Source: a virus
Lineage: Duplodnaviria; Caudoviricetes
Virus record (IMG/VR): IMGVR_UViG_3300032296_001930
Span: 1 to 55,249 of that record
Reading direction: 5' to 3' (one strand)
Length of the DNA: 55,249 nt
A program made the translations under genes and the position numbers. Numbering within the stretch: the stretch's first letter is position 1; every line of letters begins with the position of its first letter. Below are positions 17,510 to 55,249 of the stretch, one piece after another. A model generated the notes under the pieces. It ran no database searches. It saw only the letters and a program-made list of their open reading frames with translations, and was not told the DNA's origin.

Positions 17510-20500
17510 TTACCTCCTAGCCTTTCGTTTCGTGTCCTTCAGGTAGTCCAAAGGAGATTTCTTTGCCGGAGGAGGGAGATCCTGCGGCTTTGCCGACCGG
17601 TGATACGCCCGAATCGAGTGCATCATGTCGTAGAGTTTATCGCTGCCAGCCTTCGTTGAGCCATTTCCAAGGGCCGCGACGACATCCGCCGGGAAGACAA
17701 ACTCCCCGTCAGCCAGCATGGCCGGGATGTCATCGGACTGGCCGTCGCCGGGGCCGGTCACCGCATCACCGCGGCGGAAGTCCACGCGCATCTTGCCGGA
17801 GTGCTCGACCGTATTCAGACCGCCGCCAGCGTACCGGCCGTGCCGGGTACCGGTCGTGCCGCCTTCGGCCATCAAGACGCTGGCCAGCCCACCCTCCTTG
17901 GCACCCAGCGTGTAGGGCGTGAAGGCGGTTCCCATGCCCTTGAGCGGATTCAGGATCGCATCGATCTCGTTGGCCGTGCCGTAGGAGAAGTAATTCTGAT
18001 CCGGCTGCTGTTGCCCCTGTTGAGGCTGTTGCGCCTGCTGCGCTTGTTGTGTCTGTTGCATAGGTTGTCCAGTCGGCGTTTGTGCGGGGGTGTAGGTGCC
18101 CTCTTTCACGGTCTTGAGGAATTGCTCCAGAGGGCCTTCGAACTTGGCCGCCGGTGCGCCGGAGGTCATGAACGGGTCTTTGAAGGATGGCCCCGAAATA
18201 GCCTCATCACCGCCGCCGGGTCTGGCGACATAAGACATGGCCCGCTGGGTCAACTCCCTGCCCTTGGCGGCTTGGGCTGCGGCACGAGCGGCAGCGGCTT
18301 GACGCTCCTTCTCGGCCGCCATCTCGGTCTTGATGCCAGTGATCTCCCCGCCCAGCAGGGTTCCGACATCGGTGATCGCCGTCTGGAGGTTCTCGCCCAT
18401 CTGCACGCGGGCAAGCACCTCAGCCTTTTGGTTGGCGTTGAGTTCCTCGAACTGCGCCTGAGTCTCTTTGCTCAGGGTTTGCAGTTGGGTCTGAACTGCC
18501 TGATTGGTCTGGACAAGGTTTTGCTGGACGGTGTTGATGGCCGTCTCAAGGTTCTGCCCCATCTGCACCCGAGCATTGACCTCAGCCTTCTGCGCTGTTG
18601 ACATATTGTCAAAAGCGGTTTGGGTCTGCTGGCTCAGACTGGTGATCGACTCGCTGATGTTTTGCAGCGCCTGCTGGGTCTGGGTTCCCTGCTGGGCCAC
18701 CGTTTGGGCGACAGTGTTGATCGCGCTCTCAAGGTTCTGACCCTGCTGGACACGAGCGGCCACCTCGGCCTTCTGAGCGGCGCTCAGGGTGTCGAATGCG
18801 GTCTGGGTCTGCGTGCCCAGTTGAGTGACAGCGTTGCTGATGTTGTTGATGGCCGTCTGGGTGTTTGTCGCCAGATCAGTCACAGATTGCGAGGTCGCCA
18901 AATTTGCGGTTGCGTTGCTGATCGCTGTCTGCACCTGAGCCGGAGTGGCGGTCGCAGGCAACGCCGCCAGCGCGGTGTTGACAATGTTCTGCACCTGCGT
19001 CGAGGTCAAGCCCGGATTGGCCGCCATCGTGGTGTTGATCAGTTCCTGCACCTGCGCCGTGGTCAAGCCCGAGGCGGTCGTAGTGCCAGTAGTCGTACCG
19101 GTTCCGGCTGCGGTGCCAGTGGTAGAGCCGGTGCCCGCCGCTGTTCCGGTGGTCGTGCCCGTAGTGGCCCCAGTGCCAGCAGTCGTTCCAGTGGTTGTGC
19201 CTGTCGCGGTGCCAGCCGTAGAACCGGCAGTGGTGCCTGTGCCAGCAGTTGTTCCGGCAGTTGATCCAGTGCCCGCCGTTGTGCCAGCAGTGGTACCGGC
19301 GGTCGTACCCGTCGTGGTGCCAGCCGTTGTTCCGCCAGCGGTCGTTCCAACAGTGGTGCCCCCGGCCGTGGTTCCGCCGGTTGTCGTGCCACCAACAGTC
19401 GTTCCGGCGGTAGTCCCGCCAACAGTGGTTCCAGCGGTGGTGCCGCCGACGGTTGTTCCTGCCGTAGTTCCACCTGCGGTCGTTCCGGCGGTCGTTCCGC
19501 CAGTTGTCGTACCGGTAGTGGTGCCGCCAGTTGTCGTGCCGGTGGTCGTCCCGCCGGTCGTGGTTCCGGTGGTGCCGCCGGTAGTTGATGCAGCAGGAAC
19601 TACCGCGCCCTTGCTGATGGCGAGGACATCCGCAGAGGTCACAACGCCGTCTTTGTTCACATCGTAACGAAGGTCAACGGGCTTCTTGCCAAGAGCCATG
19701 TCCATCGCAGCGAGCGCATCGGGATTCGTTACCGTGCTGCCAGTAGTGCCGCCAACAGTCGCGGTGCCGCCACCTGTCGTGGTGGTCGCGCTGCCGGTAT
19801 CGGTGCCCGTGTTGGTCGTGCCACCCGTTTGAGTAGTCACAGAGCCGGTCGTGGTGCCGGAAGTTCCTCCGCCAGTGGTCACGCTGCTGCCCGGAGCCGT
19901 ACTCATCACGGCATTGGCCACCGCGGTTCCGAAGGTTTCCGCGTTCACGCCGCCGTTGGCCAGTGCGGTGTTGATCTGCGTCCTGAACACATCAGCGCCG
20001 ACCTCGTTGGTCAGGCTGTTCTTGATCGGCGCGAGTACCGCGTTGATCTGATCTTGATTCAAACCAGCAGAGGTCAGGCTGTTGGTCAGGTTCTGGTTGA
20101 GCACCCGATCCACCATCTCGTTGGCCAGCGTCTCTGCACGAGCGCCCGTAGCCCCGAGGTTCTGAAGCATATCGGCCGTGCGATCCTTGACCGTGCCGAT
20201 GCCGACACCACCGTTGCGAATGGTGTTCTCGATGCCCCTTGCAATCTGATCGATGTCGTACTGCTGGATGCCGAAAGTCTGGTAGACCTGATTGAGTGAC
20301 GGCAGCGTGGGGTTGAGCGAAGTCTCGCGGGTGTTCTCGGAGAACGGGTTCGCAGTGTTGGCGGCGTTGCGGAGGTTCTGAAGAGCCGTGCCCGTGGAGC
20401 CAGCAACACCCACCGCAGCAGTGGTGGCCAAAGCGGTATCCGCCAGTGCGTTCTTGTAGTCCTCGAAGGTTGCGTTCTTGCCCAGACCCACCGACAGCCA

Positions 20501-23500
20501 CTTGTCGGCGGCCATCTGTGCGGTGGTGGTCAGAAGTTCAGAGATCTGCTCGTTGCCCAGACCCAAGCCAAAGTTCTTCACCGAGTTGACGATCTGGCCA
20601 ACATCCCCGGTGATAGGTATGCCCTTCATGAGTTTGCTCATGCCCGGCACGCCCAAAGCCTCGCCGACGATCTCAAGCGAGGTCATCACCGCGGTGCGGA
20701 TGCCGTTCTGCTCAGGCGTAAGTTTCGTGAAGGTGAAAACCCCGTTCTGACGGGCTTCATCGGCGTTGTTCCATGTCCGGCCCTTGCTGTCGATCACGGC
20801 GTTGGAGCCTTCGATCCATGCATTGTTGGCCGCGATACCGCCAAGGGTTCCGATGGCCCCAAATGGGCCGCCAAGAGTCCAAGAGATGGCTGAGGAGATG
20901 CCAGAGGCAAGGCCGCCAGCAACGACACGCTCGTTGCCGACCAACTTGTTCATGGTCGTCTCTTTGTCCTTGGTCATCAGGTCTTGCAACTTGTCCAGCG
21001 TCGGAGTGTCGTAGCCGAACACCTCGCCCATGACCTGTCCGGCACGGGTCACCAAGCCCACCAGATCGTTGCCAGCGCCGCGGATACCTGCCCTTACGGT
21101 GCCGATGTAGTCGGTGTGATTCGATGCCTTGATCTCTCCAGTGGTAAACACCGGCGCATAGGTCTGGCCAGAGGTTCGCTCGGACACGCCCTTGTAGTTC
21201 TGAAGGTGGTCGTTGATCACCTTGTAGGTCGCCGAATCAGCGCCGCGCAGAAGGGCGGCACGCTGCTCAGGCGTAGCCTTGACATAGTTGTCGATGAAGG
21301 AGGACATCTCCTTCTCGCTGAGATCTGACGGGTTCGTGGCGCTATCGAATCGTCCAGTGATGTTGGACATCCGAATGGCCTCGGTCAGGCGGCCCTTCAC
21401 AAGGCTTACATCGCGAGTGTCGAAGTCACCGGTGGCCTGATTAACCGCGGTCTTGAATGCGGCCTCTTCCTTGGTGTCGGTGATGTAGGTGCGCGTGACG
21501 CCCTTGTCGTCAGTCCACTGGAAGGTCTTGCCCGGGCCGAGTTGCTTGCGTGCAGCAGCGTATGCCTGTCCGAACGAGACCTTCTGAGCCTGCGAAGCGC
21601 CGGGCGAGACATACCCGTCGGGAAGATCCAGACCGTTGATGGCACCACTTTGCGCGGCGGCCACCGAGTCGTCCTGATTCAGGAATGTTTGCGATTCGGC
21701 TGCGGTTGGCTTCCGATTGGCTATCGATTCGAATTCACGAGTGATCCGATCAATCGCGTGATCTTGGAACTTCGCCGAGTCGTAGTTGGTGAACGAAACG
21801 CCGGAGAAGCGCTTGGCTTCATCGTCGGTCAGCGTCAGGCCGTAATCGCGCTTGAAGATGTTCTGAACATCGGAGTACGACAACTGACGGCCAGCATCCG
21901 CGCCAAAGCGCACCACATTGCCTGTGGAGTCCTTAAATTCCAGACCGTTTTGAGACACGCCAGCGGCGTTCGTGAAGACCGGCTTGTTGACATAGTTGCC
22001 GCTCTCGTCGGGCACCATCTGATAGAACTTGCCGTCCTTCAGGGTCATGCCGTTGGACAGCGTGTAGGTGCCATCGCTGAAGTCGGTGACCTTGATTGCG
22101 CCCTCGTTCACGGCATCAATGGTCAGGTCGCGAGTTGCGATCTCGGCCACGATCTTGTTGTAGTTTTGAGCGGCGCGATCAGCGGCCTCTTTCGAGGTCG
22201 CGTAGTTCGTGTACTCCTTCTGATACTTGTCAGAAGCAGCCTTCAGGCGAGCGGCGATGTTGTCGCCGGACGGGGTCTCGATCTGGGCGCGAATTCCCTC
22301 AAGCAGGGCAACCGTCTGGGTAACAGAGTTCTCCTTGGCCTTCAGGCGATTGATAATGTCTTGAGTCTTCGCATCATCATTCAGCGCACTGAACGAATCC
22401 GAGGCGGCCTTGGCCGCAGCGCCAGCGTTGTTTGCGGTTGCGACATTGGCACGCGCAGCATCAAGGAACGACTGCTGAGTTGGGCCGTAATCCAAAGAGG
22501 TGGTTGGATTTCCCTCGGAGTCTAGAATGCTGCCATCGGGCACAAAAGCGTTGTAGTAGCCGCCGCTCTCGGGGTCGTAGCGCTGCTCATATCTGCCGCC
22601 AATGCGCTTGAAGTAGTACGAACCGTTTTCGTCTCCCGTAAACGAATACCCCAACTCGCGCATCTTTGCGTCGTAGTTCTCGTAGGCCCACTTGTTCTTC
22701 TCGTAGTCGGCCTTGGCTACCTCATAGATCGCCTTGTTGTCGTCAAAGGTCTTCTTGTAGGTGGTCAGTTGATCGGCGATGGGCGTGTACTCATCCTCGT
22801 AGATGTCCATGTACGCCGCCTGATCGGCCTTCAGCGTGGTAACGCCCTCGTTGTACTTCCTCGCCTCAGCGTCGTATTTGGCCTTGACGGCCACATAGTC
22901 GTCCTGCGCCTTCTGCGCGAGATCGGTCTTGCCGGTGAAGTCCTCGTAAGCCTTGACCGCGGTCTTGTAGAGTTCCGAGGAACCCATCTTCAGGGTAGCG
23001 TAGGCGATGTAGTTCGCAACAGCCTGAGTGGGATCTCCCTTGCCAGAAACAATCGTGTTCAGGGCGGTGCTGGTTGACCCCTTGAGCAGGTCGAGCGTGG
23101 TCTTGGAAAGGCCCCAGTTCGGGTCTTTGTTGATCTCAGTGAAGAAACTGTCCGTGCCGGTGTAGATCAGGCCCGAGGTGAAGCCTGAGGTGATGCCATC
23201 CATCACAGGCTTGCCGCTGAACAGGGCGTTCATGCCCCCAACCATGGCCTGACCAGCGGCGGAGGTAATCGTGTTGGCAACCGCAGCCGAGGTCGCCAAA
23301 GGGAGATCGAAGCCGCTGGAGATGGCCTCGGTCATGTCGGTCTTGAGATCGCCTAGCGCACTCTGTAGGCCGGTGGCCTGAAGGAAGTTTGCCGAGGCAT
23401 ACGACACAAATGCAGACTTTGCAATGTCTTCAAGGCCGCCGCCCCTAGACGCCGTGATGACTGCGGCCGTGACATAGGGCGGGATGCCGATCATGGCCCC

Positions 23501-23677
23501 GCCAATCTGAAGAATGGTCGGCAGCGGATCTTTCAGGACATTGGTGACGAATTTGCCGACGCCTTCGACCACATCGAAGACAGCATCAAACACACCCTCG
23601 ACGATGTCACCAAAAGCGCTGGCAATGCTGCCCAACGCATCGCCAAGTCCTTCAAAGAAATTGCTTACGGCACCCAT
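17510..23677 (-). CDS. Giant (2055 aa) multidomain internal virion protein
   Basis: Hydrophobic N-terminus, coiled coil, dockerin/EF-hand-like motif, Thr/Gly repeat, helical repeats, C-terminal GPG.G.SDDIPAML.DGEFV domain. Confidence 0.7.
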   Translation of the reverse strand: MGAVSNFFEGLGDALGSIASAFGDIVEGVFDAVFDVVEGVGKFVTNVLKDPLPTILQIGGAMIGIPPYVTAAVITASRGGGLEDIAKSAFVSYASANFLQATGLQSALGDLKTDMTEAISSGFDLPLATSAAVANTITSAAGQAMVGGMNALFSGKPVMDGITSGFTSGLIYTGTDSFFTEINKDPNWGLSKTTLDLLKGSTSTALNTIVSGKGDPTQAVANYIAYATLKMGSSELYKTAVKAYEDFTGKTDLAQKAQDDYVAVKAKYDAEARKYNEGVTTLKADQAAYMDIYEDEYTPIADQLTTYKKTFDDNKAIYEVAKADYEKNKWAYENYDAKMRELGYSFTGDENGSYYFKRIGGRYEQRYDPESGGYYNAFVPDGSILDSEGNPTTSLDYGPTQQSFLDAARANVATANNAGAAAKAASDSFSALNDDAKTQDIINRLKAKENSVTQTVALLEGIRAQIETPSGDNIAARLKAASDKYQKEYTNYATSKEAADRAAQNYNKIVAEIATRDLTIDAVNEGAIKVTDFSDGTYTLSNGMTLKDGKFYQMVPDESGNYVNKPVFTNAAGVSQNGLEFKDSTGNVVRFGADAGRQLSYSDVQNIFKRDYGLTLTDDEAKRFSGVSFTNYDSAKFQDHAIDRITREFESIANRKPTAAESQTFLNQDDSVAAAQSGAINGLDLPDGYVSPGASQAQKVSFGQAYAAARKQLGPGKTFQWTDDKGVTRTYITDTKEEAAFKTAVNQATGDFDTRDVSLVKGRLTEAIRMSNITGRFDSATNPSDLSEKEMSSFIDNYVKATPEQRAALLRGADSATYKVINDHLQNYKGVSERTSGQTYAPVFTTGEIKASNHTDYIGTVRAGIRGAGNDLVGLVTRAGQVMGEVFGYDTPTLDKLQDLMTKDKETTMNKLVGNERVVAGGLASGISSAISWTLGGPFGAIGTLGGIAANNAWIEGSNAVIDSKGRTWNNADEARQNGVFTFTKLTPEQNGIRTAVMTSLEIVGEALGVPGMSKLMKGIPITGDVGQIVNSVKNFGLGLGNEQISELLTTTAQMAADKWLSVGLGKNATFEDYKNALADTALATTAAVGVAGSTGTALQNLRNAANTANPFSENTRETSLNPTLPSLNQVYQTFGIQQYDIDQIARGIENTIRNGGVGIGTVKDRTADMLQNLGATGARAETLANEMVDRVLNQNLTNSLTSAGLNQDQINAVLAPIKNSLTNEVGADVFRTQINTALANGGVNAETFGTAVANAVMSTAPGSSVTTGGGTSGTTTGSVTTQTGGTTNTGTDTGSATTTTGGGTATVGGTTGSTVTNPDALAAMDMALGKKPVDLRYDVNKDGVVTSADVLAISKGAVVPAASTTGGTTGTTTGGTTTGTTTGGTTTGTTTGGTTAGTTAGGTTAGTTVGGTTAGTTVGGTTAGTTVGGTTTGGTTAGGTTVGTTAGGTTAGTTTGTTAGTTAGTTAGTGSTAGTTAGTGTTAGSTAGTATGTTTGTTAGTGATTGTTTGTAAGTGSTTGTAAGTGTTTGTTTASGLTTAQVQELINTTMAANPGLTSTQVQNIVNTALAALPATATPAQVQTAISNATANLATSQSVTDLATNTQTAINNISNAVTQLGTQTQTAFDTLSAAQKAEVAARVQQGQNLESAINTVAQTVAQQGTQTQQALQNISESITSLSQQTQTAFDNMSTAQKAEVNARVQMGQNLETAINTVQQNLVQTNQAVQTQLQTLSKETQAQFEELNANQKAEVLARVQMGENLQTAITDVGTLLGGEITGIKTEMAAEKERQAAAARAAAQAAKGRELTQRAMSYVARPGGGDEAISGPSFKDPFMTSGAPAAKFEGPLEQFLKTVKEGTYTPAQTPTGQPMQQTQQAQQAQQPQQGQQQPDQNYFSYGTANEIDAILNPLKGMGTAFTPYTLGAKEGGLASVLMAEGGTTGTRHGRYAGGGLNTVEHSGKMRVDFRRGDAVTGPGDGQSDDIPAMLADGEFVFPADVVAALGNGSTKAGSDKLYDMMHSIRAYHRSAKPQDLPPPAKKSPLDYLKDTKRKARR
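19070..19880 (-). repeat. Low-complexity Thr/Gly/Ala coding repeat (GGTTAGTT units)
   Basis: Visible in translation; codon-degenerate at DNA level. Confidence 0.9.
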
Positions 23678-52041: not shown

Positions 52042-53466
52042 TCAAACGGCGTATGGGTTGATCCGGCGCGGCCTGCCGGTGTCGGCGTAGTCGTCCTCGT
52101 CCCAGTCCTCTTCGGGCGGGGGATCGACCTCCAGCCAGCCAGCGTCGCGCAGCCAGCGCAGGGCCTGCGAGGCGGTATCGACGAAGTCGTCGTGCGTGGT
52201 CTCGGGGAAGGCGCAGATCTGGCTCACGAAGCCCTCGGCCCAGTCCCTGACATACCCCTTGCGCTGGCTCGACTCGGGGATCCAGACCCGGCCGCGGGCG
52301 ATGATGTGGGAGACGATGTTCAGGCGCTGCACCTTGTCGGCCTTGCCGGGGTTGTAGGCCATGACCGGCAGGTGCGCCCGCTGCAAGTCTTGGATCAGGC
52401 TGATGCCCGAGGACTTGTCCTCGATCAGGATCAGATCCACGCGCTTCTTCTCCTTGCCCTCGCCGAAGACCACGCCGTACTCCTCGACCACCTTGGGGCG
52501 CAGGTCGGGGTACTGGAGCCTGTCCTGCCACGCATCGATCAGCATGACCGACATCGGGCCATCCAGCGGCTTGAACACGCCCCAGACCGTGCAGGCCGTG
52601 GGATCGTTCTGGGTCTTCTCGGTGGCGGCGCAGTCGTAGGACTGGAGGATGTACTCGAACTTCGGGAAGGGCTTGCCATCGGGCCACAGGCGGAACCAGT
52701 CCCGCTTGACGATGCCGCCCTCCTCGGGGTCGATGATCTCGGCGTAGATCTCCTGCCGCCCCAACTTCGTGCCCTCGTAGGACAAGATCTGCTTTTTGAA
52801 GTTGTCGCTCAGGTTGGCCAAATTGGCGTAGGTCGAGGCCGTGGTCAGCACAACATCGTCACCCTCCCGGGCGATCAGTTCGAGGATCAGATCCTTGGGC
52901 TTGGGCGTCGTGGTGCAGATCAGGCGGGTCTTAAACCCCTCGCCGAGGGTCAGGCGCAGGCCGAACTGCATCATGTCCCATGCGTCTTGCAAGTACTCCC
53001 ACGCGGCCAACTCGTCGCACCAGCCGCCATGGAACTGCGGGCCGCGGAAGCGCTCAGGCTCGCTGGCCGGGATACCCTTGATCAGGCTGCCGTTGACCAG
53101 CCGGAGTTCGTGCAGGGCCTTGTTGTAGTCCTCGATCAGGAACGCGGGGATCACCGACACCAGCCCGGAGTCGCCCTCGAAGCAGGTGCCGCGGACATCG
53201 GCGCTCGTGGGCGCTGCCACCAGCCAGCGGGTCTTGGGGTACTCCCACGCCCACCAGCCCAGTTGCTCGGCCGCAGTGCGGGTCTTCCCGGCTCCCCGAC
53301 CGGCCAGCATCAGCCAGATCGACCACCAGTCCCCATGGGGCAGGGTCTGGTGCGGGAGGGCGTTGTGCTGCCATGTCAGCCGCCACGCGGTGGCGAGTTT
53401 CTTGTACGGCGGCAATTCCTTGAAGGCCGCCTGTACTTGGGGATCTGCCAGTTCAGCGAGATCCAT
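52042..53466 (-). CDS. terL: Terminase large subunit
   Basis: Walker A AGRGAGKT, Walker B WCDE, TTTP coupling motif, nuclease SYD...IEDK...FP...HDD.VD. Confidence 0.95.
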   Translation of the reverse strand: MDLAELADPQVQAAFKELPPYKKLATAWRLTWQHNALPHQTLPHGDWWSIWLMLAGRGAGKTRTAAEQLGWWAWEYPKTRWLVAAPTSADVRGTCFEGDSGLVSVIPAFLIEDYNKALHELRLVNGSLIKGIPASEPERFRGPQFHGGWCDELAAWEYLQDAWDMMQFGLRLTLGEGFKTRLICTTTPKPKDLILELIAREGDDVVLTTASTYANLANLSDNFKKQILSYEGTKLGRQEIYAEIIDPEEGGIVKRDWFRLWPDGKPFPKFEYILQSYDCAATEKTQNDPTACTVWGVFKPLDGPMSVMLIDAWQDRLQYPDLRPKVVEEYGVVFGEGKEKKRVDLILIEDKSSGISLIQDLQRAHLPVMAYNPGKADKVQRLNIVSHIIARGRVWIPESSQRKGYVRDWAEGFVSQICAFPETTHDDFVDTASQALRWLRDAGWLEVDPPPEEDWDEDDYADTGRPRRINPYAV

Positions 53467-54106
53467 TGGCCTGCCGTTTCAACTCGATGTTCTGGAGCAG
53501 GGCGGCCATCATCTTCTCGGCCTGCGACTCCACCTCGACCTTCAGCGGGTTCTCGGCGTCACCGGCCAGTTGCACCCGGTCGCCGAAGCGCTTGGGATCC
53601 CACTTGGCCAGCAGTTTCAGCCGGGTCTCGATCTGAAGTTTGCGGTGCCCCAGCATATCCTCCCGGGACAGCGCAATCGTTTCATTGCCCTTGTGGTCTA
53701 CCGAGGTGGTCTCCTTGACCCCCAACTGCGGGGTGTCGGCAATGATCAGGCACTGCTCGGCCAGCGCGTCATATCCAATTTCGCGTGCGCGTGCGATGCT
53801 TGCGGAAAGGCCGACGCCGCCTCCAGCAGCAACAGCCTCGTCATCCCGATACATCCAGTCGTAGATGGTTCTCCATGCTGGGAACCCTTCCATGCGACAG
53901 ATCTCTTGGAGGGGTACTCCTTCTGCGAGGAGGTTGCACATCTTCTGTGCGATCTCTGGGGTGTATTTGCTTGGGCGGCCGGTTTTCTTGGCCTCAAGGC
54001 TTTTGGGCGGGATTTCTGCGGGCGCGGCTGTCTCACCCTTGCTGGGGGCCGCTACGGCCTTGGTGGCCTTCTTCGCTGGCTTTCTCGGGGTTTCTGGCTT
54101 GGCCAT
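53453..54106 (-). CDS. terS: Terminase small subunit (Sf6 gp1-like)
   Basis: GRPSKY...C..LAEG..L..IC...P...T...W...ARE.G.D...KL..ETR...LAKW.PK.FGD. Confidence 0.88.
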   Translation of the reverse strand: MAKPETPRKPAKKATKAVAAPSKGETAAPAEIPPKSLEAKKTGRPSKYTPEIAQKMCNLLAEGVPLQEICRMEGFPAWRTIYDWMYRDDEAVAAGGGVGLSASIARAREIGYDALAEQCLIIADTPQLGVKETTSVDHKGNETIALSREDMLGHRKLQIETRLKLLAKWDPKRFGDRVQLAGDAENPLKVEVESQAEKMMAALLQNIELKRQANGSR

Positions 54107-54251
54107 ATTCCTCTCCGGTTATTTTTGAACTGTCGCCAGTGTAAACCCTTTCGGTTTTCATTGGAGTTGGTGGCGCACTGGGTTCGGGGCTTATCGATTC
54201 CCTCCCAGTGCATTGACAATGAATACGGTACTCCGTCCATGCCCTGTCCCA

Positions 54252-54400
54252 CCAACACGACTGGGGACTGAGGCGGGATTCGAACCCTTACCGGACTCCT
54301 CTCGGCTAGCCATAACGCCTGTCCGTTTGCCTTTCGACTTTCAGCGAGTCTCCTGAAGTGTGGCTGCACCCCCTCGCCTCTCAATCCCCATGCGTGTTGG
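54252..54400 (-). ncRNA. Putative structured, tRNA-like non-coding RNA
   Basis: Complementary arms CCAACACG..GGGGATTGAG / CTCAGTCCCC..CGTGTTGG enclosing a GGGTTCGAATCCC T-loop and internal hairpins; intergenic. Confidence 0.55.
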
Positions 54401-54427
54401 CCCCCTCGCGGGGAAACCGATTCGCTT

Positions 54428-54661
54428 TCAGTTCGCCGGTGACTCGCTGCCCTCGATCAGATCGACCTGCTCGGGTGCGCGGTATTGCTCCACGGGCGTG
54501 CCCTTCTGAACCTCGGCCACCAGATCATCCTGCGATGCGACGCGCACCGTCAACATGGTATTGGCGACATGGCTCAGTGCCTGCTGGCGCAGGGCGGCCT
54601 TGATCAGTCGGGTCTTGCCGTCGGGCGTGCCGACGAGGTAAATGCGTTGCTGAGTTGCCAT
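54428..54661 (-). CDS. Conserved hypothetical protein
   Basis: RIY.V...RL..A....QA..HVA...V.VA...DLV pattern; own -10 element upstream. Confidence 0.75.
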   Translation of the reverse strand: MATQQRIYLVGTPDGKTRLIKAALRQQALSHVANTMLTVRVASQDDLVAEVQKGTPVEQYRAPEQVDLIEGSESPAN

Positions 54662-54687
54662 GGTTTTGCTTTTGTTTGAATAGGACA

Positions 54688-54722
54688 GATGTAATTCTAA
54701 CGGATATCAGCAGATGTGAAAA
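54688..54722 (-). promoter_or_regulatory. Promoter sharing the TAGAATTACA -10 element of the early promoters
   Basis: GATATCCGT-TAGAAT-TACATC; weak -35. Confidence 0.5.
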
Positions 54723-54746
54723 GGCCCGGTTTGTGGCCGGGCCTCT
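54718..54746 (-). terminator. Rho-independent terminator
   Basis: AGGCCCGG-N7-CCGGGCCT-TTTC. Confidence 0.6.
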
Positions 54747-54777
54747 GGTGTTGGTAGAGGGGCACCACCCCTTGCTT

Positions 54778-54832
54778 ACCGAATCGGTTTTGGTTCGCTT
54801 TCAAATCGGTATAGGTTCGCTATCGATTCGCT
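54778..54832. repeat. Five degenerate 11-bp tandem repeats ending TCG(G/C)T
   Basis: ACCGAATCGGT TTTGGTTCGCT TTCAAATCGGT ATAGGTTCGCT ATCGATTCGCT. Confidence 0.75.
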
Positions 54833-54979
54833 TCAAAGTAGGCAAATCATAACGATAAAGGCCGTGAAGGCCAACCCTGCCAGTGTCTCGTCTACAACGA
54901 ACTGGCGGCTGCGCTCGTAGTACCACTGCCGCTGGCTGGGCAGGTCTCGCATCATCTCGTCGATCTCTTGCTTGGTCAT
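54833..54979 (-). CDS. 48-aa protein with C-terminal TM helix (MTKQEIDEMM...)
   Basis: Translated by hand; ATGA overlap with upstream ORF. Confidence 0.6.
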   Translation of the reverse strand: MTKQEIDEMMRDLPSQRQWYYERSRQFVVDETLAGLAFTAFIVMICLL

Positions 54980-55249
54980 TCTTCACCCCCAATCCCGTGT
55001 GCGCGTTCGATGGCGCGGGCAAAGGCCGCGATGTCAGCAGCCAGTTTGGGTTCCGCTGCGGGATGGAACGGCCACAGCCCTTGATACTCGCGCCAAATCT
55101 CCTCATCCGTCAGCGGCTTGCACTGCGGTGGGTGGGTGTAGAGGGGTATCTTCCACTTCAGGCTTTGCGGAGGAAACTGAAACCGCATTGTTGTGTTCAT
55201 CCTGATTGAACCGTATGGCGATTCCAGCCACGCCACCGGCTGCTCCGGC
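54976..55249 (-). CDS. 3' part of a hypothetical protein entering from the window edge (...PEQPVAW...PLY.HP...FARAIE.AHGI)
   Basis: Frame open to the window end; PVAW/PLY/LTDEEI motifs typical of variable phage genes. Confidence 0.7.
   Translation of the reverse strand, partial: PEQPVAWLESPYGSIRMNTTMRFQFPPQSLKWKIPLYTHPPQCKPLTDEEIWREYQGLWPFHPAAEPKLAADIAAFARAIERAHGIGGEE

What the first reader, a model, noticed from the sequence alone, without database searches (positions are those of the whole stretch)
54160..54410. tRNA-like, highly structured RNA in the leader of the terminase operon
Seen (minus): the 3' end has tRNA geometry GGG-UUCGAAU-CCCGC-CUCAGUC-C-CCA (54262-54287), pairing with 5' GAUUGAG (54380-54386), with potential G-1:C73 as in tRNA-His. 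However, the body is ~125 nt, has no clear D or anticodon arm, and contains UUCAG/CUGAA and GUC-GAAA-GGC hairpins and a CGGAC/GUCCG pairing. An outer stem CCAACACG/CGUGUUGG competes with an alternative pairing (54166-54173 with 54249-54256) that encloses another 8-bp hairpin (54175-54211). Inference: a novel ncRNA such as a tRNA mimic/decoy for anticodon nucleases, a processing-dependent late-operon switch, or a packaging-associated RNA.
Basis: partly seen in the sequence, partly recalled or inferred. Interest (0 to 1): 0.7.

Follow-up and report, generated by a model that had tools for sequence, protein, structure and literature searches.

The report
Phage array of tRNA-like RNA cassettes
The flagged stretch holds two folded RNA modules of a widespread, apparently undescribed phage system in which many different small RNAs sit inside the same two constant, tRNA-acceptor-like stems, next to tRNA and DNA-packaging genes.

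Summary
The sequence features are at the stated coordinates. They resolve into two modules on the minus strand.

- **Module A (54252-54400).** A constant closing helix encloses a 128-nt five-helix RNA with a T-loop. The same helix encloses unrelated interiors in 148 unique elements from IMG/VR phage contigs.
- **Module B (54166-54256).** This is a three-way junction closed by a second constant helix, GUUGGUG/CAYCAAC+A. In other phages that helix is the acceptor stem of tRNA-like genes.

The two helices overlap, and modules chain into arrays. These arrays share the strand of the nearest tRNA gene in 16 of 16 tRNA-bearing loci.

The window's 128-nt cargo is an RNA class of its own. It also occurs without the scaffold in unrelated GC-rich and AT-rich phage contigs. 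It has a 20-nt near-invariant core and strong covariation (96.5% paired, 20 pairs changed on both sides).

It is not a tRNA, tmRNA, Y RNA or any Rfam family.

Best model, which is inferred: the modules are co-transcribed with the packaging operon and excised by host tRNA/rRNA-processing nucleases into stable small RNAs. Their function is unknown. Expression and processing are not shown.

The parts
54428..54661 (-). Upstream 77-aa ORF (context). Its stop codon lies 27 nt before module A.
   Evidence: ORF list. No PHROG family. The ORF end is conserved in L016, L003, L006 and L011, where the gap content differs.
54402..54413 (-). Small GC hairpin CCCC-GCGA-GGGG just upstream of module A.
   Evidence: Read. 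A similar hairpin is present in L016. It is not followed by a U run, and no minus-strand terminator was called.
54382..54400 (-). Scaffold A, 5' half: outer strand CCAACACG, loop CA, inner strand UGGGGAUUG.
   Evidence: 148 unique elements carry a paired 3' half.
54262..54389 (-). Cargo of module A, a 128-nt RNA of a new class (model R1). Helices in window coordinates:
- P1: 54389-54380 with 54272-54263
- P2: 54378-54373 with 54348-54343
- P3: 54372-54367 with 54360-54355
- GNRA hairpin: 54338-54329
- P4: 54325-54321 with 54296-54292
- P5: 54319-54317 with 54306-54304
- T-loop hairpin: 54287-54275
   Evidence: Alignments A3 and A4 with pair counts. cmsearch scores the window copy at 157 bits.
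54252..54270 (-). Scaffold A, 3' half: inner strand CAGUCCCC, then A, loop GU, outer strand CGUGUUGG.
54166..54256 (-). Module B: closing helix GUUGGUGG/CCACCAAC around a three-way junction. Its 5' strand overlaps the 3' outer strand of scaffold A.
   Evidence: RNAalifold on the window, L082 and L049 gives 29 pairs, 3 of them with changes on both sides. The B helix follows 85 of 148 A elements within 170 nt.
54107..54165 (-). Proximal 5' UTR of the small terminase gene, with the hairpin AAACC-GAAA-GGUUU and the Shine-Dalgarno-like GGAGAGG.
   Evidence: It is 96% identical in L016 although the cassettes upstream differ.
53453..54106 (-). Small terminase subunit gene (context). The large subunit lies at 52042-53466.
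   Evidence: ORFs. phrog_1482 and Pfam Sf6_terminase are among the window's ORFs. The large subunit matches Terminase_6N and Terminase_6C.

Best explanation
The region is the RNA island of a lytic freshwater phage. It holds two adjacent modules of a modular array, each a folded cargo RNA held in one of two constant closing helices.

- Helix A consists of an 8-10-bp outer stem, a 2x2 loop and a 9-bp inner stem.
- Helix B is 7 bp followed by an unpaired A, and is a tRNA acceptor stem in form.
- B's 5' strand is part of A's 3' outer strand, and B's trailer is the next A's leader. Modules therefore chain like the tightly packed tRNA genes of phage clusters.

**Shown.** The helices and the window's cargo fold are conserved with covariation on the transcribed strand. 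Cargos are interchangeable between scaffolds and between phages. Arrays sit beside tRNA genes on the same strand.

**Inferred.**
- The array is transcribed with the upstream ORF and the packaging operon.
- Host tRNA/rRNA-maturation nucleases then cut the modules out. Candidates are RNase P at the U|G junction in front of each 7-bp helix, RNase Z or exonucleases behind the unpaired A, and/or RNase III in the ~20-bp A helix.
- The products would be compact, nuclease-resistant small RNAs.
- The window's 128-nt cargo has a T-loop stacked near the closing helix, a GNRA hairpin and a 20-nt near-invariant core. It most likely acts in trans as a tRNA-like mimic that binds a conserved host factor.
For: **Family and scaffold A**
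- Only the flanks of the window element recur in relatives, and L016 has three tandem elements.
- 148 unique elements of 61-147 nt were found in 203 sources.
- Inner stem, with elements found by their outer parts only (186 unique): 84-91% paired at each position, and 94 cells changed on both sides yet still paired. G.U-type pairs far outnumber A.C-type pairs, so the fold exists on this strand only.
- Outer stem, with elements found by their inner parts only (121 unique): pairs 1-6 are almost invariant, pairs 7-9 vary C/U opposite G, and there is one compensatory change, in L015.

**Scaffold B and arrays**
- A B helix follows 85 of 148 A elements within 170 nt.
- B-position elements in L108, L185 and L176 score 39.3, 44.9 and 35.4 bits on Rfam tRNA (gathering score 29). 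GUUGGUG/CAYCAAC is their acceptor stem.
- tRNA genes occur in 16 of 119 element-bearing loci, and in all 16 the nearest one is on the same strand within 400 nt. In L082 a tRNA-Leu CCA end runs into the A leader.
- The same cargo class occurs in both A and B scaffolds for 3 classes. The window's B module lies before, not after, the A orthologue in L082.
- T-loop hairpins occur in 12 of 148 A cargos and 6 of 85 B cargos, against 0.2 expected. Most lie next to the 3' strand of the closing helix.

**Window cargo class**
- 7 sequences: 99.6% paired, 11 pairs changed on both sides, 0 of 500 shuffles as high.
- 13 distinct sequences: 96.5% paired, 20 pairs and 77 cells changed on both sides.
- Scaffold-free copies exist. 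L326 has its own closing stem followed directly by an intrinsic terminator.

**Transcription**
- Contigs from RNA libraries carry the constant flanks around another cargo. This is a weak hint, because DNA carry-over is not excluded.
Against: - No RNA ends, processing or expression have been shown. The RNA-library evidence comes from contigs only.
- Neither helix is followed by an encoded CCA, although the true tRNA-Leu of L082 encodes one.
- Leader-trailer pairing in the A outer stem would be expected to hinder RNase P. This rests on established knowledge of the enzyme, not on a test here.
- Outer-stem pairs 1-6 are conserved in sequence rather than by covariation. A sequence-specific reader, or a constraint at the DNA level, is therefore equally possible.
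- Cargo-only folding energies are only modestly better than shuffles: mean z is -0.75 for A and -0.37 for B.
- Only about 8% of cargos have a T-loop hairpin, so tRNA mimicry cannot be the general cargo function.
- No dedicated RNA-processing or RNA-binding protein was recognised among 53 window ORFs.
Confidence: 0.5

Rival explanations
1. The modules act in cis on the mRNA. They would be structured intergenic or leader modules that stabilise or insulate the packaging-operon transcript, or tune TerS translation. The mutually exclusive A-outer and B helices would serve as a folding switch, and no trans-acting RNA would be released.
For: - The modules lie inside an operon, between a 77-aa ORF and TerS on the same strand.
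- Most arrays have no terminator behind them: 11 of 117 do.
- Arrays often end a few bases before a ribosome-binding site and start codon.
- The two helices compete for the bases GUUGG.
Against: - Close relatives with 68-89% identical TerS lack the cassettes in the same gap yet keep the proximal UTR.
- Arrays occur behind TerL, behind HNH genes and beside primase or RusA genes, so they are not tied to one gene.
- The window cargo also occurs as a stand-alone gene with its own terminator, in L326.
- tRNA genes are interleaved with the arrays.
Confidence: 0.2
2. The element works at the DNA level. The constant inverted sequences would be sites for recombination (cassette exchange, integron-like or by short-homology recombination), or for packaging or replication proteins. 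Alternatively the units are small selfish mobile elements, and their RNA folds are secondary.
For: - The outer-stem sequence is almost invariant across phages with different terminases.
- Modules are shuffled between phages and between scaffolds.
- Arrays lie near packaging genes in many loci.
- The AT-rich homologues are flanked by an 8-nt direct repeat.
Against: - G.U pairs are strongly asymmetric. The inner-stem U.G wobble is kept in 137 of 186 elements, and many G.U pairs would be A.C mismatches on the other strand.
- The nearest tRNA gene shares the elements' strand in 16 of 16 tRNA-bearing loci.
- Cargos show compensatory changes of their own.
- Pfam found no integrase, transposase or reverse transcriptase among 53 window ORFs.
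- The integron core sites GTTRRRY/RYYYAAC, recalled from memory, are not matched by GTTGGTG/CACCAAC.
- A folded single DNA strand is not excluded.
Confidence: 0.12
3. The modules are decayed or remodelled phage tRNA genes with no present function of their own.
For: - Some B-position elements still score as tRNA, with a ~50-nt insertion where the anticodon arm should be.
- T-loop hairpins are enriched.
- The modules are present in only some related phages: 13 of the 80 TerS-related loci.
Against: - The window cargo keeps a 20-nt near-invariant core and 20 covarying pairs across GC-rich and AT-rich phage contigs.
- Cargo classes are conserved across contigs, with 51 classes having two or more members.
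- The scaffolds are under strong constraint.
Confidence: 0.08

Closest known systems
Phage tRNA gene clusters with co-encoded stable tRNA-like RNAs (T4 species 1 and 2 RNAs, matured by RNase P, RNase BN/Z and the CCA-adding enzyme). Recalled from memory, not retrieved in any call.
   Same: - Tightly packed RNA genes with spacers of a few bases, on one strand and beside true tRNA genes.
- Acceptor-like helices without an encoded CCA.
- RNAs of about 120-140 nt with unknown function.
   Different: - Here two universal closing helices are reused for at least 143 sequence classes of cargo.
- Neighbouring helices overlap.
- Most cargos have no tRNA features.
Bacterial and phage Y RNAs of the YrlA type (PMC4201824; passages read).
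   Same: - A modular small RNA.
- A stem formed by the 5' and 3' ends, plus a tRNA-like domain with a T arm.
- Also found in phages.
   Different: - Y RNAs are encoded next to a Ro60/TROVE gene, and none is found in this phage.
- No Rfam Y-RNA family matches.
- There is no conserved D-arm mimic.
tmRNA tRNA-like domain.
   Same: A G-rich 5' end paired to the 3' end, with a T arm just before the 3' strand.
   Different: - ARAGORN finds no tmRNA.
- There is no tag reading frame and no pseudoknot series.
- The RNA is 128 nt long.
Engineered 'tRNA scaffolds' for expressing recombinant RNAs (recalled from memory), and allo-tRNAs with 8/4 or 9/3 acceptor/T branches (PMC5389517; abstract only).
   Same: - In L108, L185 and L176 a cargo is inserted in a tRNA body at the anticodon arm.
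- The window cargo has a long acceptor-like helix with a short T stem.
   Different: - These are natural, phage-borne and arrayed.
- Scaffold A is not a tRNA body.
- There is no anticodon.
RNase III processing stems of rRNA operons and phage T7 early mRNAs (recalled from memory).
   Same: - Leader and trailer pair into a helix of about 20 bp interrupted by a small internal loop.
- That helix encloses the RNA to be released.
   Different: - The sequence, not only the shape, of the outer stem is conserved.
- Cleavage was not tested.
Integron gene cassettes with attC sites.
   Same: - Arrays of exchangeable units bounded by imperfect inverted repeats.
- The repeats consist of two boxes, an unpaired spacer and a variable centre of 60-140 nt.
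   Different: - There are no ORFs in the units and no integrase.
- The core-site consensus is not matched.
- The folds belong to the transcribed strand and carry RNA-type wobbles.

Membership tests
tRNA | Cloverleaf with a D arm and a 7-nt anticodon loop, detectable by ARAGORN or Rfam RF00005. | tested here: not met
   ARAGORN finds 0 genes in the window. RF00005 does not match at E up to 10 in 54050-54500. The covariation-supported fold has five helices plus a T hairpin and no anticodon loop.
tRNA | T arm with a UUCGAAU-type loop stacked on the acceptor helix. | tested here: met
   GGG-UUCGAAU-CCC lies 2 nt from the 3' strand of P1. The loop is near-invariant in 13 homologues.
   The four G's and four C's covary as pairs: GAGG/CCUC, GAAG/CUUC, GGGU/ACCC, GAUG/CAUC. 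Scaffold-free homologues do not end in CCA.
tmRNA | tRNA-like domain plus a tag reading frame and pseudoknots, detectable by ARAGORN. | tested here: not met
   Searches find none. Rfam finds none.
Y RNA / YrlA | Encoded beside a Ro60 (TROVE) gene, with a Ro-binding stem plus D- and T-arm mimics. | tested here: not met
   PF05731 is absent from the 55-kb phage record, while the controls were positive. No Rfam match.
Any Rfam 15 family | Score at or above the family's gathering score. | tested here: not met
   The window has 0 matches. Fourteen array-bearing loci give only tRNA and int-alpA. Ten loci with cargo homologues give 0 matches at E up to 0.1.
Intrinsic terminator / attenuator switch | GC hairpin followed by a U run on the transcribed strand. 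| tested here: not met
   No minus-strand site in 53400-55249. 11 of 117 arrays have one within 350 nt, against 13 of 113 in the upstream control.
Integron attC cassette | Core sites RYYYAAC / GTTRRRY and a nearby IntI integrase. | tested here: not met
   CACCAAC / GTTGGTG fail the consensus at two positions each; the consensus is recalled from memory. No integrase family is among 53 window ORFs.
RNase P / RNase III substrate | Cleavage at the helix border or within the ~20-bp helix by the enzyme. | not testable with these tools
   Only the shape and the U(-1)/G(+1) context are seen. The single read-laying run returned contigs, which cannot show ends.
Scaffold-A cassette family (defined here) | 5' YNAACACG-CA-UGGGGAUUG and 3' CAGUCYCC-A-GY-CGUGUUGG, paired around a variable interior. 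| tested here: met
   The window copy has 0 mismatches to both 17-mers. It is one of the 148 unique elements.

The most novel reading that the evidence does not exclude
This would be a natural 'RNA cassette' system of phages. More than a hundred interchangeable structured RNAs would be displayed in two universal, overlapping acceptor-like helices. Those helices would make each cargo a substrate of the host tRNA-maturation machinery, and would let cassettes be swapped between phages through the constant junctions. On this reading the window's cargo is a new, widely conserved tRNA-mimic RNA whose near-invariant 20-nt core binds or inhibits a universal tRNA-handling or defence factor, or is catalytic.
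Probability: 0.3. Interest if true: 0.85.

Novelty: new variant of a known kind. Interest (0 to 1): 0.75.

Why it matters
If the modules are excised small RNAs, phages of freshwater Burkholderiales carry a large and so far unseen repertoire of structured RNAs. These RNAs would be expressed through a common scaffold that resembles tRNA processing signals, as a natural counterpart of the engineered tRNA scaffold.

The system offers three things:
- a ready-made handle, the two constant helices, for finding many new RNA classes in viromes;
- a testable route to RNA-based host takeover or counter-defence;
- one new RNA class with a deeply conserved core, shared by unrelated GC-rich and AT-rich phages, whose target is likely to be a conserved cell component.

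The constant junctions also appear to break metagenome assemblies, because many elements lie at contig ends. That matters for virome assembly.

Tried and rejected
- **Earlier findings.** The search of earlier findings was not open.
- **GenBank phages.** blastn gave no match for the 341-nt gap, the 128-nt cargo or an AT-rich homologue.
- **Genome collection.** The 17-mer hit 118 stretches, but by my own arithmetic about 280 chance hits are expected in 596 Gb. Only 4 of the 118 carry the paired 3' half: a Polynucleobacter isolate chromosome and three short MAG contigs.
- **Host family.** Of 401 genomes in that isolate's family, 4 match the 17-mer with up to 1 mismatch. Three of those 4 lack the partner.
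- **Host tRNA as the source of the scaffolds.** No tRNA-sized unit with either closing helix occurs in 5 genomes of that family.
- **Y RNA.** No TROVE gene is present.
- **Dedicated protein partner.** Nothing RNA-related appeared among 53 window ORFs in the families listed. All 17 Pfam families were shown, but only the top 25 of 90 PHROG families.
- **Small peptide from the AUG in the 5' flank.** Element lengths show no 3-nt periodicity (by eye).
- **Model R1 on other loci.** Over 100 scaffold-A loci it gave only two weak hits, L169 at 20.4 bits and L179 at 17.2 bits, so the window cargo is rare among the cassettes.
- **RNA-seq evidence.** Four runs from RNA libraries hold only small shares of the stretch, and all are contigs, so they give no ends or levels. 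Gaps in their cover are not evidence.
- **First consensus fold.** MAFFT plus RNAalifold on 11 sequences missed P1-P3 because the AT-rich sequences were misaligned. This was solved with a hand-drawn structure and a CM alignment.
- **AT-rich locus.** The minimum-free-energy fold of the 324-nt stretch was uninformative, with z = -0.92.
- **Literature.** Five searches found no description of such arrays or of this RNA. Polynucleobacter-1 (RF01718) is in Rfam and did not match.
- **Supplements.** Supplementary files of papers were not consulted.

Full report
**1. The observation**

- the T-arm-like GGG-UUCGAAU-CCC (54287-54275), followed by GC, CUCAGUC, C and CCA, running to 54262;
- the partner strand GAUUGAG (54386-54380);
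- the hairpin GUC-GAAA-GGC and the pairing CGGAC/GUCCG;
- the outer stem CCAACACG (54400-54393) with CGUGUUGG (54259-54252);
- the competing pairing GUUGGUGG (54256-54249) with CCACCAAC (54173-54166);
- the 8-bp hairpin inside 54211-54175.

The 271-nt stretch folds better than its shuffles, with z = -2.58, and 3 of 200 shuffles fold as well. ARAGORN finds no tRNA or tmRNA in the window. Rfam finds nothing at gathering scores and only noise at E up to 10.

**2. Setting**

The window is a 55,249-bp IMG/VR virus record with an estimated completeness of 99%. The region fills a 321-nt gap between a 77-aa ORF (54428-54661) and the small terminase gene (53453-54106). The large terminase gene follows, and all are on the minus strand.

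Among 53 ORFs, PHROGs and Pfam recognise packaging, virion, lysis and replication genes. They recognise no integrase, reverse transcriptase, RNA ligase or Ro60. Three sigma-70-like promoter sites lie upstream on the minus strand, against 0.7 expected. No minus-strand terminator lies in the gap.

**3. Only the flanks recur: scaffold A**

A protein search with the small terminase gave 80 related loci. blastn of the gap against them showed that, in most, only the two ends of the element recur, around different interiors. L016 has three such elements in tandem.

A script that asked for a complementary 3' flank found 148 unique elements of 61-147 nt in 203 sources. They have the form YNAACACG-CA-UGGGGAUUG [27-113 nt] CAGUCYCC-A-GY-CGUGUUGG.

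To avoid circularity I re-detected the elements by one part and scored the other.
- **Found by the outer parts (186 unique).** The eight inner pairs are 84-91% paired, and 94 cells are changed on both sides yet still paired. A U.G wobble is kept in 137 of 186, and G.U-type pairs far outnumber A.C-type pairs.
- **Found by the inner parts (121 unique).** Outer pairs 1-6 are almost invariant in sequence. The single compensatory case is CAACUCG/CGAGUUG in L015. Pairs 7-9 vary C/U opposite G.

The helix is therefore real and exists on this strand only. Its outer half is constrained in sequence.

**4. Scaffold B and the arrays**

Print-outs of the arrays show that the bases after each A element, GUUGGUG, pair with CAYCAAC some 40-160 nt downstream. 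An unpaired A follows, and then AC plus the next A leader. This B helix follows 85 of 148 A elements within 170 nt. By my estimate about a fifth could arise by chance, but the 3' strands are dominated by CACCAACA and close variants.

B's 5' strand overlaps A's 3' outer strand, so the two helices exclude each other.

In L108, L185 and L176 the B-position element scores 39.3, 44.9 and 35.4 bits on Rfam tRNA, whose gathering score is 29. GUUGGUG/CAYCAAC is the acceptor stem, normal D and T arms are present, and about 50 nt are inserted where the anticodon arm should be.

True tRNA genes occur in 16 of 119 element-bearing loci. In all 16 the nearest tRNA is on the same strand within 400 nt. In L082 the CCA end of a tRNA-Leu runs into the A leader.

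Neighbouring genes include TerL, TerS, HNH endonuclease, phrog_858, primase and RusA. Only 11 of 117 arrays have a terminator-like site within 350 nt, against 13 of 113 upstream, so arrays mostly lie inside operons.

The modules shuffle:
- The window's B module lies before the A orthologue in L082.
- Three cargo classes occur in both scaffolds.
- A Polynucleobacter chromosome carries an A module, a B module and a third type of closing stem.

The 233 cargos fall into 143 blastn classes, which is an upper bound, and 51 classes have two or more members. T-loop hairpins are enriched, in 12 of 148 A cargos and 6 of 85 B cargos against 0.2 expected. Most lie next to the 3' strand of the closing helix, as in tRNA.

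**5. The window's A cargo is an RNA class of its own**

Motif scans found the interior of the window element in further contigs.
- **In scaffold A:** L082, L321/L323, L322, L329 and L324. L324 has GAUG/CAUC in place of GGGG/CCCC.
- **Without scaffold A:** L326 has its own stem GAAUUGAG/CUCAAUUC followed directly by an intrinsic terminator. L327 and the AT-rich contigs L325, L328, L330, L331 and L332 also lack the scaffold.

Invariant or near-invariant blocks are CUGAAAGUC-GNAA-GGCAAAC, GAGAGGA, GGUA and GUUCGAAUC.

A hand-drawn structure on a gap-free alignment of 7 sequences contains P1, P2, P3, a GNRA hairpin, P4, P5 and a T hairpin. It gives 99.6% paired cells, 11 pairs changed on both sides, 0 of 500 shuffles as high, and 31-50% in slid controls.

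A covariance model built from it recovers all the copies in those loci, 14 matches of which 13 are distinct. On the resulting alignment 96.5% of cells pair, 20 pairs and 77 cells change on both sides, and slid controls give 28-46%. That alignment is fitted to the model, which favours the structure.

P4 is 5 bp and is followed by 4 nt and then the T hairpin, the spacing of a tRNA anticodon stem, variable loop and T arm. There is no D arm and no anticodon loop.

Rfam and ARAGORN find nothing in these loci, and GenBank phages hold no match.

**6. The window's B module**

The window, L082 and L049 share a three-way junction with 29 predicted pairs. Three of these change on both sides, including GUUGGUGG/CCACCAAC against GUUGGCGG/CCGCCAAC.

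**7.

- The G-1:C73 plus CCA register fails because those bases covary as pairs and the CCA is not conserved.
- The UUCAG/CUGAA hairpin is not kept, and P2/P3 explain those bases.
- The region holds two modules, not one RNA with a switch.

**8. How it most likely works**

Three things are shown. Strand-specific conserved folds exist. The units are modular and shuffle. They are associated and co-oriented with tRNA genes.

The rest is inferred. The array would be transcribed with the operon. Each 7-bp helix, with a U before it and an unpaired A after it, and with spacers of 5 and 12 nt, resembles the packed tRNA precursors that RNase P and RNase Z or exonucleases separate. The ~20-bp A helix with its small internal loop resembles RNase III processing stems. 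Excision would yield stable small RNAs. The window cargo, with its T-loop and deeply conserved core, would act as a tRNA-like mimic on a conserved host factor.

Contigs from RNA libraries carry the constant flanks around another cargo. This is only a weak hint of transcription.

The rival explanations are a cis-acting mRNA element, a DNA-level recombination, packaging or mobile site, and decayed tRNA genes. They are weighed in their own sections.

**9. Distribution and novelty**

The elements are phage-borne and come from fresh water. The runs that hold the window stretch are lake or freshwater metagenomes.

They are rare in bacterial genomes:
- 4 of 118 17-mer hits are true elements.
- 1 true element was found in 401 genomes of one family.

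The one isolate that carries an element is a Polynucleobacter. Five full-text searches found no description of the arrays or of this RNA.

I file the finding as a new variant of a known kind, namely phage tRNA-cluster RNAs and tRNA-like mimics. It contains one new RNA class.

**10. Limits**

- There are no RNA ends and no biochemistry.
- The class count depends on blastn sensitivity.
- Several comparisons to known systems rest on recall and are marked as such.

Noticed in passing
L082:1615-1662 (minus strand): A spacer inside an array holds a full-length match to the type I hammerhead ribozyme, with all core bases (CUGAUGAG...CGAAAC...GUC). It scores 19.9 bits against a gathering score of 34, with E = 0.024 in a 301-nt search. 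Self-cleavage may take part in array processing.
   Followed up: partly
L003:2066-2487, L006:480-905, L011:2080-2480: Close relatives of the window phage have different content in the same gap upstream of TerS. They carry a TTGACA-17-TATGAT promoter-like site, a short hairpin-plus-U-run unit that looks like a small RNA gene, and a conserved ~250-nt GC-rich stretch. L003 had no Rfam hit. L011 keeps a remnant of the scaffold-A 3' flank fused to the -35 box.
   Followed up: no
L331:2090-2405 (minus strand); also L325 and L330: In AT-rich phage contigs the homologue of the window cargo is flanked by the 8-nt direct repeat CTAAATGG (seven of the eight bases in L330). It lies between a tRNA-like 5' half and a T-arm-like hairpin followed by a strand complementary to that 5' end. 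It looks as if it were inserted into a larger tRNA-like gene. The fold was uninformative.
   Followed up: partly
L108:2082-2190, L185:6178-6281, L176:1921-2033: These tRNA-like genes score above the Rfam tRNA gathering score and have normal acceptor, D and T arms. About 50 nt are inserted in place of the anticodon arm. ARAGORN does not call them.
   Followed up: partly
L016:2311-2442; also L184, L142, L115, L148, L105, L181: A recurrent B-scaffold cargo type has two terminal hairpins whose loops, GGCUGAU and GAUCAGC, are complementary. This suggests a kissing-loop or pseudoknot. The middle part is variable.
   Followed up: no
L298:560-1060 (minus strand), Polynucleobacter isolate chromosome: This bacterial chromosome carries an A module, a B module and, just upstream, a module with a third closing stem (CACAAGUGUGGG/CCCACACUUGUG). 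The cargo of that third module matches a class seen in scaffold A in L126.
   Followed up: partly
L099:1-77, L144:4973-5044, L122:8034-8100, L165:4219-4294 and others: Many elements lie at or within about 200 nt of a contig end. The constant junctions, shared by co-occurring phages, may break metagenome assemblies.
   Followed up: no
L126:5427-5494: An int-alpA RNA (RF02996) scores 44.9 bits against a gathering score of 35.8, in a contig that also carries a three-element array and two tRNA genes.
   Followed up: no
window 17510-23677 (minus strand): There is a 2055-aa ORF here. Among the window's ORFs, Pfam also finds N4 gp49/Sf6 gene 66 and Sf6-type small terminase families. The phage type was not worked out.
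   Followed up: no
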